Of a stretch of 31,287 nt of DNA, positions 27,001 to 30,000 are shown in pieces. The number at the start of each line of letters is the position of its first letter. Within the stretch, counting starts at the first letter, position 1. Origin of the DNA: a virus (taxonomy: Duplodnaviria > Heunggongvirae > Uroviricota > Caudoviricetes); IMG/VR virus record IMGVR_UViG_2548876857_000005, positions 1 to 31,287 of that record, one strand, 5' to 3'. Made by a program: the position numbers.

Positions 27001-30000
27001 CAGGATTTCCCTGCCTTCCGCACAGCCTGGCGATATCCTGCTGTGCTGCTTTGGCGCATCGGTGGCCAATCATGCCGCCATATACTGCGGCAACGGTGAG
27101 CTGCTTCACCATCTGCCTGAACAACTGAGTAAACGGGAGAGGTATTCCGAAAAATGGCAACGACGAACGCATTCAGCCTGGCGTCACCGCCACTGGCACG
27201 TATCTGCCTTCACGGGGATTTACAACGATTTGGCCGCCGCCTCAGCCTGTATGTGAACACGGCAGCGGAAGCCATCCGTGCCCTGTCGATGCAGATGCCG
27301 GGATTCCGCCGTCAGATGAACGAAGGCTGGTACCAGATACGTATTCGCGGTGAGGACACGGCACCGGAGGCGGTGTACGCCCGTCTTCACGAACAACTGG
27401 GTGAGGGAACGATCATCCACATTGTGCCGCGACTGGCCGGGGCCGGAAAGGGTGGACTGCAGATTGTGCTGGGGGCGGCAGCCATCGTGGGCTCTTTCTT
27501 CACTGCCGGGGCATCAATGGCGTTATGGGGTTCAGCCCTGAGTGCCGGTGGTTTTTCTGCCACCACGATGCTGTTTTCACTGGGGGCCAGCATGATACTG
27601 GGTGGTGTGGCTCAGATGCTTGCCCCGAAGGCAAAAACACCGGATTACCGCGCAACGGATAACGGCAGACAGAACACGTATTTTTCCTCACTGGACAACA
27701 TGATTGCTCAGGGGAACCCGATGCCGGTGCCTTACGGTGAAATGCTGGTTGGCTCACGGCGAATCTCCCAGGACATCAGTACCCGTGATGAAGGCGGTGA
27801 CGGGAAGGTGGTGGTTATCGGGCGGCAGGCATAAAAGCGAAAAAATCCCGCAGTGACCGAAGGCTGCGGGAACAGAAAATGAAGATTAACCACAGGGGGT
27901 TTTGTTTTTATTGGCCCGAAAAACTGTAACGCCCGGGAATGATATCTGCCACGGGGGCGTACAGAAAATGTGAAGAAATTCAGAAATTTTATTCCGTCAT
28001 GACACAGGCACCCTCCGGGGTGCCTGTCGTTTTTGGGGCATAAACAGATTCAGACATCAGACAGGAGAGGGGGACCGAGTGGGTAAAGGTGGCGGCAGGG
28101 CACACACGCCGGTTGAGGCAAAGGACAATCTTAAGTCCACGCAGATGATGAGCGTGATTGATGCCATTGGTGAAGGGCCGATTGAAGGTCCGGTGAAGGG
28201 GCTGCAGAGTATCCTGGTGAACAAAACCCCGCTGACGGACACGGACGGTAATCCTGTGATACATGGTGTGACAGCGGTCTGGCGCGCCGGGGAGCAGGAG
28301 CAGACACCACCTGAAGGCTTTGAGTCCTCCGGGGCGGAAACCGCACTGGGCGTGGAAGTGACGAAGGCAAAGCCGGTGACGCGCACCATTACGTCCGCGA
28401 ACATTGACCGCCTGCGGGTCACCTTCGGGGTGCAGTCACTGTTGGAGACCACCTCAAAGGGCGACCGTAATCCCTCTTCTGTCCGACTGCTGATTCAGTT
28501 GCAGCGTAACGGTAACTGGGTGACGGAAAAGGATGTCACCATTAACGGCAAGACCACCTCACAGTACCTGGCGTCGGTGATTCTGGAGAATCTGCCTGAG
28601 CGGCCCTTTAACATCCGGATGGTCCGGGAGACAGCGGACAGCACCCCGGACCAGCTGCAGAATAAGACGCTCTGGTCGTCATACACCGAAATCATCGATG
28701 TGAAACAGTGCTACCCGAACACGGCGATTGTGGGGCTGCAGGTGGATGCGGAGCAGTTTGGCGGTCAGCAGATGACGGTGAACTACCATATCCGAGGTCG
28801 CATCATCCAGGTACCGTCAAACTATGACCCGGAAAAACGCACGTACAGCGGCATCTGGGACGGCAGCCTGAAACCGGCATACAGCAACAACCCGGCCTGG
28901 TGCCTGTGGGACATGCTGACTCACCCGCGCTACGGCATGGGAAAACGTCTGGTGGCGGCGGATGTTGACAAGTGGGCGCTGTATGCCATCGGGCAGTACT
29001 GCGACCAGACGGTCCCGGATGGTTTCGGGGGCACAGAGCCGCGGATGACCTTTAATGCGTACCTGTCACAACAGCGTAAGGCGTGGGACGTTCTCAGTGA
29101 TTTCTGCTCGGCGATGCGCTGTATGCCGGTATGGAACGGCCAGACGCTGACGTTCGTTCAGGACCGCCCGTCGGATGTGGTGTGGCCGTACACCAACTGC
29201 GATGTGGTGGTGGATGATAACGGCGTGGGGTTTCGCTACAGCTTCAGCGCCCTGAAGGACCGCCACACGGCGGTGGAGGTGAATTACACCGACCCGCAGA
29301 ACGGCTGGCAGACCTCCACGGAACTGGTGGAAGACCCGGAAGCCATACTGCGCTACGGGCGCAACCTGCTGAAGATGGATGCGTTCGGCTGCACCAGTCG
29401 CGGTCAGGCCCACCGTGCCGGGCTGTGGGTGATAAAGACCGGACTGCTGGAAACGCAGACGGTGGATTTCACGCTCGGGTCACAGGGGCTACGTCACACA
29501 CCCGGTGACATTATTGAAATCTGTGATAACGACTATGCCGGGACCATGACCGGCGGACGTATCCTGTCCATCGATGCCGCCAGCCGTACCCTGACACTGG
29601 ACCGTGAGGTGACCCTGCCGGAGACAGGTGCCGCCACGGTGAACCTGATTAACGGCAGCGGTAAGCCGGTGAGCGTGGCCATCACTGCACACCCCGCGCC
29701 GGACCGGATACAGGTCAGCACCCTGCCTGATGGTGTGGAGACATACGGTGTATGGGGACTCTCCCTGCCGTCACTGCGTCGTCGCCTGTTCCGCTGTGTC
29801 TCCATCCGGGAAAACACGGACGGCACCTTTGCCATCACGGCGGTGCAGCACGTACCGGAAAAAGAAGCCATCGTGGATAACGGGGCCAGCTTTGAGCCGC
29901 AGTCAGGCACCCTGAACAGCGTTATTCCACCGGCAGTGCAGCACCTGACGGTGGAGGTGAGCGCGGCTGACGGTCAGTATCTGGCACAGGCGAAATGGGA

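What the first reader, a model, noticed from the sequence alone, without database searches (positions are those of the whole stretch)
27835..28078. ORF-free 244-bp insert between tail genes I and J bounded by two opposed intrinsic terminators
There is a 244-bp gap between the I stop and the J start. It contains a hairpin that is followed by a T-run only on the minus strand (27847..27870) and a strong + strand terminator (28005..28034), with no ORF of meaningful length between them. This is the signature of a small non-coding transcript (or two divergent ones) embedded in the tail operon. EHEC prophages are known to carry regulatory sRNA morons, but I cannot verify that this locus matches any described one.
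Basis: inference. Interest (0 to 1): 0.6.

Follow-up and report, generated by a model that had tools for sequence, protein, structure and literature searches.

The report
Known prophage small RNA PasB locus
The 244-base gap between tail genes I and J holds an allele of an already described prophage small regulatory RNA (PasB in EPEC, EcOnc22-24 in EHEC), read antisense to the tail operon, plus a conserved rightward terminator just before J whose role is still open.

Summary
I (Lambda_tail_I) stops at 27834 and J starts at GTG 28079. The gap has no conserved ORF, a minus-strand hairpin with a U-run (27840-27870) and a plus-strand terminator (28004-28034).

The left hairpin is the terminator of a known Hfq-dependent sRNA. 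EPEC PasB (83 nt) and EHEC Sakai EcOnc22/23/24 (~85 nt, unstable without Hfq) map to the same place and strand in their own I-J gaps. A covariance model built only from other alleles hits the window once, at 27839-27915 on the minus strand (51 bits, E about 1e-8).

Three points appear not to be published:
- The two pentamers of a CRP-type site, TGTGA-N6-TCAGA (27969-27984), never vary. The site sits at a fixed distance, about -60.5, from a conserved TAnnnT hexamer.
- The plus-strand terminator shows compensatory and strand-specific wobble changes. It occurs once per gap, next to J.
- In other phages the I-J gap holds tandem arrays of such antisense sRNA cassettes.

I found no evidence for a second, plus-strand sRNA. 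Verdict: a real feature, already known in kind, of low to moderate interest.

The parts
27154..27834 (+). Tail assembly gene I; the stop codon TAA is at 27832-27834
   Evidence: ORF list. Pfam Lambda_tail_I, E = 2.4e-15.
27840..27917 (-). PasB-family sRNA gene, about 77-78 nt. The 5' end near 27916/27917 is inferred by alignment to the published E2348/69 ends. The 3' end is at the U-run, 27840.
   Evidence: Published PasB coordinates (NC_011601, minus strand, 1466343->1466261) mapped through alignment A2. Covariance model R1, built without window-type alleles, hits 27839-27915 on the minus strand at 51.4 bits, E = 1.4e-8, full length.
27840..27870 (-). Intrinsic terminator of the sRNA. Stem 27864-27870 pairs with 27847-27853; the U-run is 27840-27845.
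   Evidence: Fold at -14 kcal/mol, z = -3.4. The stem is the same in nearly all homologues found through the right-hand site, exceptions being one internal deletion and one point mutation. At least ten different loop sequences occur. One divergent homologue (L129) carries the compensatory change CCCACAG/CTGTGGG.
27879..27890 (-). Conserved single-stranded stretch GUUAAUCUUCAU just 5' of the terminator; the proposed seed
   Evidence: It is the best conserved part of the RNA body in 61 unique units and in alignment A4. Zhu et al. 2026 place the PasB seed at this position.
27899..27912 (-). A-rich 5' segment AAUAAAAACAAAAC, four A-R-N triplets; a possible binding site for the distal face of Hfq
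   Evidence: Read directly from the sequence. A-rich segments are present in the other alleles. The Hfq role is an inference by analogy with the ARN motifs described in Tree 2014.
27923..27928 (-). -10-like hexamer TACAGT (TAnnnT); it ends 6 nt upstream of the mapped 5' end
   Evidence: TAnnnT is kept in all 90 scored units (TAGTGT, TACAGT, TAATGT, TACTTT and others). The plus-strand TAACGC motif is conserved.
27939..27944 (-). Second -10-like hexamer TATCAT, 15 nt further upstream (TATAAT in E2348/69)
   Evidence: In E2348/69 the scan finds TTCACA-16-TATAAT, 11 of 12 matches, on the minus strand. The window has only a weak -35 (one search found no promoter at its threshold). This promoter would give an RNA about 15 nt longer.
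27969..27984 (.). CRP-type site TGTGA-agaaat-TCAGA, 9 of 10 core positions. Its centre at 27976.5 lies about -60.5 from the predicted PasB start.
   Evidence: Pattern match. Both pentamers are invariant and the spacer varies in 61 units chosen without reference to this site. The distance to the TAnnnT hexamer is 48.5 in 86 of 90 units. CRP binding itself is an inference.
28004..28034 (+). Conserved rightward intrinsic terminator. The stem is 28004-28013 paired with 28018-28027; the T-run is 28030-28034.
   Evidence: Over 20 distinct variants, 98.0% of cells pair on the plus strand against 94.5% on the minus strand. One pair changes C:G to U:A, and 10 cells are G.U only on the plus strand. A T-run is kept in every variant.
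28079..31287 (+). Tail tip gene J. It starts at GTG 28079 behind GGAG 28064-28067 and runs past the end of the window.
   Evidence: Pfam FNIII-A_GpJ and Phage-tail_3. Homologous J starts are annotated in Sakai and E2348/69.

Best explanation
The gap carries one leftward sRNA cassette inserted between late genes I and J of a lambdoid, Stx-type prophage.

Shown:
- The minus strand, about 27917 to 27840, is an allele of the PasB / EcOnc22-24 sRNA family.
- It has the family's position, strand, terminator and conserved pre-terminator stretch.

Taken from the literature on homologues:
- The RNA is about 83-85 nt, made in the lysogen, and unstable without Hfq.
- In Hfq RIL-seq chimeras it is joined mostly through its 3' 25-50 nt to mRNAs such as ler, perB, bfpB, bfpI, ftsZ and galE.
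- It is therefore a trans-acting base-pairing sRNA, but no target has been validated.

Inferred here:
- Transcription starts about 6-7 nt downstream of a conserved TAnnnT hexamer.
- It is helped by CRP-cAMP bound at TGTGA-N6-TCAGA near -60.5, a class I geometry (about 0.5 confidence).
- The U-run terminator stops the RNA 6 nt short of the I stop codon, so the lysogen makes no antisense RNA across I.
- The plus-strand hairpin at 28004-28034 is a separate, selected rightward terminator, present once per gap next to J. Most likely it stops non-antiterminated rightward transcription before J in the lysogen and is read through by Q-modified polymerase in lytic growth (about 0.45 confidence).
For: Locus and strand:
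- PasB is annotated between E2348C_1436 (I) and E2348C_1437 (J) on the opposite strand. Its northern probe has the sense of the tail operon.
- The EcOnc22/23/24 Hfq-CRAC peaks lie in the I-J gaps of Sakai Sp15, Sp14 and Sp11, antisense to the tail genes. This holds once the coordinate shift between NC_002695.1 and .2 is calibrated on the two HnrS copies.

Homology:
- Alignments A1 and A2.
- Model R1 hit, 51.4 bits, E = 1.4e-8, the only significant hit in 31 kb.

Behaviour of homologues:
- Hfq dependence, size and expression.
- RIL-seq partners and 3' ends at 1466260/61.

Promoter model. PasB is higher in overnight LB than in exponential DMEM.

Right terminator. It is not duplicated in tandem arrays.
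Against: - No transcript data exist for this exact allele. It is only about 75% identical to E2348/69 PasB and 67-72% to the Sakai copies, and the published probe differs at more than 3 positions.
- The 5' end is transferred by alignment, not measured. A second -10-like hexamer lies 15 nt upstream. From that start the CRP-type site would sit near -44.5 to -45.5, which is not a standard activating position.
- One CRP-like match is not unusual in 31 kb: 3 found against 1.05 expected. The LB/DMEM contrast also differs in growth phase, so sigma-S or other factors could explain it.
- The insulator role of the plus-strand terminator is untested. One lineage lacks this hairpin and carries an unrelated bidirectional hairpin instead, and one phage lacks both.
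Confidence: 0.85

Rival explanations
1. Two divergent sRNAs. Besides PasB, a separate plus-strand sRNA of roughly 58-85 nt starts in the variable middle of the gap and ends at the 28034 terminator.
For: - The plus-strand terminator is conserved, with covariation and wobble pairs that work only on the plus strand.
- The roughly 40 nt upstream of it are A/U-rich and highly conserved.
- The fold of 27977-28034 is a single-stranded 5' part followed by a terminator, which is sRNA-like.
Against: - No sigma-70-like promoter is found on the plus strand in the window, E2348/69 or Sakai.
- None of the 64 Hfq-CRAC peaks in Sakai lies on the tail-sense strand of an I-J gap.
- No RIL-seq fragment has coordinates 14664xx in the part of the EPEC table that is held.
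- In tandem arrays the internal cassettes keep the conserved upstream block but not the hairpin, so the two are not one unit. The CRP-type site explains the conservation of the upstream block.
Confidence: 0.15
2. The plus-strand terminator marks the 3' end of a late-operon product. A fragment of the I mRNA 3' UTR is terminated or processed there. It carries the full antisense of PasB and acts as a PasB sponge, or as a 3'-UTR-type sRNA, during induction.
For: - A transcript from I to 28034 would be perfectly complementary to PasB, which follows directly from the sequence.
- The terminator is selected on the plus strand and lies downstream of all cassettes.
Against: - From textbook lambda biology, Q-modified polymerase reads through terminators, so little termination is expected in lytic growth.
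- No data show such an RNA.
- The tail genes are nearly silent in EPEC lysogens: base means are 5-15 for E2348C_1436 and 1437.
Confidence: 0.12
3. The conserved block 27962-27992 is not a CRP site. It is an UP element, or another regulator's site, for the upstream TATAAT-like promoter, or a conserved recombination junction between phage modules.
For: - The block is A/T-rich and lies at -37 to -60 from the upstream -10-like hexamer, which is a strong promoter in E2348/69.
- Array junctions fall right after it.
Against: - The conservation pattern is two invariant pentamers at exact N6 spacing around a variable spacer. That is what a dimeric DNA-binding protein predicts, not an UP element or a junction.
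- The match to the CRP core is 9 of 10.
- The spacing to TAnnnT is fixed.
Confidence: 0.3
4. The gap is a non-functional spacer with chance hairpins, or it encodes a small protein (the 34-aa ORF 27939-28043).
For: The count of terminator-like sites is only mildly above chance. Short ORFs exist.
Against: - Homologues are present in 781 of 5426 complete E. coli genomes and 147 phage records.
- Both hairpins are conserved, with compensatory changes.
- Homologous RNAs have been detected experimentally.
- The ORF's ATG lies in the variable segment and is absent from other alleles.
Confidence: 0.02

Closest known systems
PasB (EPEC E2348/69 prophage PP6; Pearl Mizrahi et al. 2021, PMC8550237; Zhu, Shabalina and Storz 2026 preprint)
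   Same: Same I-J gap, same antisense strand, same terminator stem CCCGCAG/CUGCGGG with a U-run ending 6 nt from the I stop. Same conserved stretch before the terminator, and the same promoter-region motifs.
   Different: About 75% identity over the RNA. The terminator loop and the 5' third differ, and the published probe has more than 3 mismatches. The 2026 survey used blastn with word size 28, so alleles like this one were probably not counted as PasB.
EcOnc22 / EcOnc23 / EcOnc24 (EHEC Sakai prophages Sp15, Sp14, Sp11; Tree et al. 2014, PMC4104026)
   Same: Hfq-CRAC peaks in the I-J gaps, antisense to the tail genes. About 85 nt on northern blot and unstable without Hfq. Homologous to the window across the whole gap.
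   Different: About 67-72% identity in the RNA body. I found no paper that equates EcOnc22-24 with PasB: Table S6 of the EPEC paper lists EHEC homologues for PasA and PasD but none for PasB. That link is my inference from coordinates and alignment.
AgvB and AsxR anti-sRNAs, and HnrS (other prophage sRNAs of EHEC)
   Same: Short Hfq-associated sRNAs with intrinsic terminators, carried as non-coding morons in lambdoid prophages. HnrS shares the heptamer AAUCUUC with PasB.
   Different: They sit elsewhere: AgvB and AsxR downstream of PR', HnrS between Rz and the terminase genes. There is no Rfam or sequence match in the gap. [quoted passage not shown]
Morons of lambdoid phages (Juhala et al. 2000, cited)
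   Same: Extra DNA between two late genes, with its own promoter and factor-independent terminator, expressed from the prophage.
   Different: The cargo is an RNA, not a protein. It is transcribed against the late operon, and the site can hold tandem arrays of such cassettes.
Class I CRP-dependent promoters such as lac P1 (site centred at -61.5; textbook knowledge)
   Same: TGTGA-N6-TCACA-type site of lac-like quality, about 60 bp upstream of the start, combined with a weak -35.
   Different: The centre is at -60.5 by my model, not -61.5. The start site is not mapped in this allele, and CRP dependence is untested.

Membership tests
PasB / EcOnc22-24 sRNA family | Lies between tail genes I and J, on the strand opposite to them | tested here: met
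   for the window; for Sakai; for E2348/69.
PasB / EcOnc22-24 sRNA family | Sequence and structure homology over the full RNA length | tested here: met
   Model R1, built from 28 alleles with window-type alleles excluded: 27839-27915 on the minus strand, 51.4 bits, E = 1.4e-8, model positions 1-78 of 78.
PasB / EcOnc22-24 sRNA family | 3' stem-loop followed by a U-run (intrinsic terminator and likely Hfq site) | tested here: met
   The 3' end corresponds to the published PasB 3' end and to the RIL-seq fragment ends at 1466260/61.
PasB / EcOnc22-24 sRNA family | Conserved single-stranded stretch just upstream of the terminator (proposed seed) | tested here: met
   GUUAAUCUUCAU at 27890->27879; conserved; the position is as proposed.
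PasB / EcOnc22-24 sRNA family | A stable transcript of about 80-85 nt whose level depends on Hfq | not testable with these tools
   Known only for the E2348/69 and Sakai alleles. No expression data exist for this allele.
AgvB (RF02702) / AsxR (RF02703) anti-sRNAs | Match to the Rfam model, and location in the moron site downstream of PR' | tested here: not met
   No Rfam hit in the gap, even at E <= 10. The location differs.
HnrS (EcOnc10-12) | 66-nt sequence with a CUUCU seed, between Rz and the terminase genes | tested here: not met
   HnrS located in Sakai. No match in the window with up to 3 mismatches.
Class I CRP-activated promoter | TGTGA-N6-TCACA-type site | tested here: met
   9 of 10 core positions with exact spacing. 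The pentamers are invariant across 61 independently chosen units.
Class I CRP-activated promoter | Site centred near -61.5 (or -71.5, -82.5, -92.5) from the transcription start | tested here: inconclusive
   The centre is -60.5 from the start predicted by the TAnnnT hexamer and -59.5 from the published 5' end. The start is not mapped at single-base resolution, and a second possible promoter exists.
Class I CRP-activated promoter | CRP binding and cAMP-dependent expression | not testable with these tools
   The only hint is indirect: PasB is higher in overnight LB than in exponential DMEM.
Intrinsic (Rho-independent) terminator, plus strand at 28004-28034 | G+C-rich stem-loop followed directly by a U-tract, maintained on that strand | tested here: met
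   Covariation and plus-strand-only wobble pairs. A T-run in all 21 variants.
Intrinsic (Rho-independent) terminator, plus strand at 28004-28034 | Termination in vivo or in vitro | not testable with these tools
   The Term-seq tables of the Sakai studies are not held.

The most novel reading that the evidence does not exclude
The I-J gap of Stx-type prophages may be a dedicated cassette site. It would hold one to four antisense, CRP-controlled sRNA genes with interchangeable bodies but a shared promoter module, closed on the J side by a selected rightward terminator. That terminator would also yield a so far unseen plus-strand RNA: either a second sRNA or an anti-PasB sponge derived from the I 3' UTR. 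PasB activity would then be coupled both to carbon status and to prophage induction.
Probability: 0.15. Interest if true: 0.55.

Novelty: already known. Interest (0 to 1): 0.3.

Why it matters
PasB-type sRNAs contact the mRNAs of virulence regulators (ler, perB) and pilus genes (bfp) in EPEC, and related copies are present in about one in seven complete E. coli genomes, often several per genome.

Recognising this gap as a PasB allele does three things:
- It gives an unannotated stretch of many EHEC genomes a name.
- It links two separately named sRNAs, PasB and EcOnc22-24.
- It suggests the family is broader and more often multi-copy in EHEC than a strict BLAST survey would show.

The CRP-type site offers a simple, testable idea for when the sRNA is made. 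None of this changes the general picture of prophage sRNA morons.

Tried and rejected
- Rfam: no hit in the gap at gathering thresholds or at E <= 10.
- AgvB/AsxR: they lie at the PR' moron site, not here.
- HnrS: at first attractive because of its multi-copy distribution, but it lies between Rz and the terminase genes in Sakai and is absent from the window.
- PasA, PasC and PasD probes: no match in the window.
[quoted passage not shown] The duplexfold output was dominated by the U-run, so I dropped the idea.
- Sigma-54 reading of the conserved TGGC motif: rejected by eye, because there is no GG-N10-GC spacing.
- A plus-strand promoter using the CRP-type site at -41.5 or -61.5: no -10-like hexamer at the required positions.
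- Small peptides, including the 14-aa ORF that spans the right hairpin: no Shine-Dalgarno sequence, and the changes in the stem are compensatory rather than synonymous.
- Using the alternative bidirectional hairpin of another lineage as convergent evidence for an insulator: rejected, because it follows an I-3' fragment and is probably the terminator of another antisense cassette.
- Term-seq, dRNA-seq and sequence tables of the Sakai, HnrS and Pas papers: not held as text.
- Literature searches for other names of this locus: nothing found.
- The genome-contig scan added only E. albertii and a few tiny contigs that look like contaminants.
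Full report
**Observation**

The window is the late region of a lambdoid, Stx-type prophage.
- ORF 27154-27834 matches Pfam Lambda_tail_I. The ORF starting at GTG 28079 matches the J-specific FNIII-A_GpJ and Phage-tail_3 families.
- The gap between them is 244 bp.
- On the minus strand it holds CCCGCAG, a 10-nt loop, CUGCGGG, then A and six U, at 27870->27840. This folds at -14 kcal/mol, z = -3.4.
- On the plus strand it holds a 10-bp, 7-GC hairpin at 28004-28027, followed by CG and TTTTT. This folds at -23.1 kcal/mol, z = -5.7.
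- The only ORFs in the gap are 23 and 34 aa, and they are not conserved.

The description is accurate.

**Distribution**

- The 244 bp match 781 of 5426 complete E. coli genomes, with a median of 4 and up to 10 places per genome. Nothing is annotated under the match.
- They also match 147 phage records, mostly Stx-converting phages.
- Rfam has no family for the interval.

**Identity of the left element**

The EPEC RIL-seq paper lists PasB in Table S6:
- It lies on NC_011601, minus strand, 1466343->1466261, 83 nt, between E2348C_1436 and E2348C_1437.
- Its probe, AATCCCGCAGTGATCGCGGAGCT, has the sense of the tail operon.
- Those two genes are I and J.
- The E2348/69 gap aligns with the window along its whole length. 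The published ends map to about 27917 and 27839/40 on the minus strand.

Tree et al. 2014 list three homologous Hfq-CRAC peaks, EcOnc22, 23 and 24, in Sakai prophages Sp15, Sp14 and Sp11.
- They give an RNA of about 85 nt on northern blot that is destabilised in a strain lacking hfq.
- In the current Sakai record these coordinates fall in the three I-J gaps, on the strand opposite to the tail genes.
- The 2014 coordinates refer to the older record. I calibrated the offset on two HnrS copies, which gave 126-153 nt. From memory, the two record versions differ in length by 128 bp.
- With that offset the peaks fall on the PasB-equivalent RNA body, not on the right hairpin.

A covariance model gave a formal test. 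I built it from 28 alleles, including E2348/69 PasB and Sakai EcOnc22, and excluded every allele 80% or more identical to the window. It hits the window once with significance: 27839-27915 on the minus strand, 51.4 bits, E about 1e-8, full length.

The left hairpin is therefore the terminator of a PasB-family sRNA. HnrS, AgvB and AsxR lie at other prophage positions and do not match.

**How the sRNA works**

From the literature:
- PasB and EcOnc22 need Hfq for stability.
- PasB is more abundant in overnight LB than in exponential DMEM.
- It forms RIL-seq chimeras through its 3' 25-50 nt with ler, perB, bfpB, bfpI, ftsZ, galE and rplX.
- No target has been validated, and reviews list the targets as unknown.

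From the sequence:
- The most conserved part of the RNA body is GUUAAUCUUCAU, immediately 5' of the terminator. The 2026 preprint places the seed there.
- The 5' part carries four A-R-N triplets, which may bind the distal face of Hfq. This is an inference.
- The terminator stem is the same in nearly all homologues that I found through the right-hand site, while at least ten loop sequences occur.
- One divergent homologue has the compensatory change CCCACAG/CTGTGGG.

**Promoter**

I collected 61 unique cassettes using only the terminator as bait. In these, the best conserved stretch of the whole gap is not in the RNA. It is ATGTGAA.A...TCAGA.TTTT at 27968-27992. TGTGA and TCAGA are invariant, and the 6-nt spacer between them varies.
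- This is a 9-of-10 match to the CRP core TGTGA-N6-TCACA.
- A TAnnnT hexamer (TACAGT in the window, 27928->27923) ends 6 nt upstream of the mapped 5' end.
- The distance from the centre of the site to this hexamer is 48.5 nt in 86 of 90 units, although the sequence between them has diverged into several haplotypes. That places the site at about -60.5, which is class I geometry.
- The condition dependence of PasB fits CRP-cAMP, but growth phase is confounded with the medium.

Caveats:
- A second -10-like hexamer lies 15 nt upstream (TATCAT here). In E2348/69 it is TATAAT with a good -35.
- A single CRP-like match is not rare in 31 kb.
- The 2026 preprint does not mention CRP or promoters.

I rate the CRP model at about 0.5.

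**The right element**

All single-cassette gaps of this lineage carry the plus-strand hairpin and T-run. Across 20 distinct variants:
- 98.0% of cells pair on the plus strand.
- One pair changes C:G to U:A in six sequences.
- Ten cells are G.U on the plus strand and would be A.C on the minus strand. Read on the minus strand, pairing drops to 94.5%.

So the hairpin is selected as a plus-strand RNA structure, that is, as a rightward terminator.

It is not part of the sRNA cassette. In phages with two to four tandem cassettes, each internal cassette keeps the CRP-type block and is followed by a fragment of the I 3' end. The hairpin occurs only once, next to J.

I found no sign of a separate plus-strand sRNA:
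- No plus-strand promoter.
- No tail-sense Hfq-CRAC peak at an I-J gap among the 64 listed.
- No RIL-seq fragment at 14664xx in the stored part of the EPEC table.

My preferred reading, at about 0.45, is that it closes the cassette site by stopping non-antiterminated rightward transcription before J, and that Q-modified polymerase reads through it in lytic growth. The read-through is textbook lambda biology and was not tested here. A second sRNA, or an anti-PasB RNA derived from the I 3' UTR, remains possible (0.15 and 0.12).

**Comparison and novelty**

The element is a member of a described sRNA family at its described locus, so I class it as already known. Four smaller points seem unreported in the papers I could read:
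- The equivalence of EcOnc22-24 and PasB.
- The real breadth of the family. This allele is about 75% identical to E2348/69 PasB, and the 2026 survey used word size 28.
- The CRP-type site.
- The selected rightward terminator and the cassette arrays.

The module is confined to Escherichia in a one-genome-per-species scan.

**Verdict**

The feature is already known in kind. Interest 0.3.

Noticed in passing
window 1249-1398 (+) and 5404-5570 (+): Rfam matches above gathering score: sok antitoxin RNA (RF01794, 103.9 bits) and STnc100 (RF02076, 101.6 bits). STnc100 lies just upstream of the 645-aa ORF 5711-7648. The 2026 preprint relates STnc100 to PasD.
   Followed up: no
window 8994-9021 (-) and 10056-10088 (-): Two strong minus-strand terminator-like hairpins (10 and 13 pairs, each with a U-run) inside the lysis-gene region, antisense to the late operon. 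The first also gives a weak hit to the PasB model (8990-9060, 14.9 bits, E = 0.47). They may be further antisense RNAs or chance matches.
   Followed up: no
window 10924-12403: About 1.5 kb with no ORF of 110 aa or more, between the lysis genes and the terminase genes. In Sakai the equivalent region holds HnrS, but no HnrS-like sequence is present here.
   Followed up: partly
L052 326-1230, L104, L110, L111, L102, L056 (IMG/VR contigs): The I-J gap is expanded to 416-919 bp by tandem arrays of two to four antisense sRNA cassettes. Each cassette has a short I-3' fragment, a minus-strand terminator, an RNA body, a TAnnnT hexamer and the CRP-type site. The plus-strand terminator occurs only once, next to J.
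   Followed up: partly
L047, L052 (~775-900), L102, L136, L009, L021, L056: A second cassette type shares the promoter and CRP-type module with PasB. It has a different RNA body (..AGUCACCUUAAGGAG..) and a different terminator (UCUCCCGU...ACGGGAGA plus a U-run). I did not find a name for it.
   Followed up: no
L016, L030, L132 and relatives; L086: In another lineage the plus-strand terminator is replaced by an I-3' fragment plus a bidirectional hairpin, CCCCGGTATC..GATACCGGGG, ahead of a different J allele. In L086 that hairpin is deleted.
   Followed up: partly
L129 1110-1370: A divergent PasB homologue has a compensatory change in the terminator stem (CCCACAG/CTGTGGG) and an altered pre-terminator stretch (AAUAUUC instead of AAUCUUC).
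   Followed up: partly
L139 and L171: An IS3-family (IS629-like) element is inserted just upstream of the CRP-type site and removes the PasB gene. The right block and J are intact.
   Followed up: no
window 28050-28063: The heptamer TCAGACA is repeated twice just upstream of the J ribosome-binding site. Other phages have three or four copies (L019, L026), so this is a small variable-number repeat.
   Followed up: no
L171 (Asaia platycodi), L173 (Parendozoicomonas haliclonae), L179 (Streptomyces flavalbus): Very short contigs in unrelated genome assemblies carry this E. coli prophage I-J gap. They are most likely contamination in those assemblies.
   Followed up: no
NC_002695 (L001-L005): Coordinates in Table S2 of Tree et al. 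2014 are offset by roughly 126-153 nt from the current RefSeq record NC_002695.2. Without this correction EcOnc22-24 would be assigned to the wrong hairpin.
   Followed up: yes
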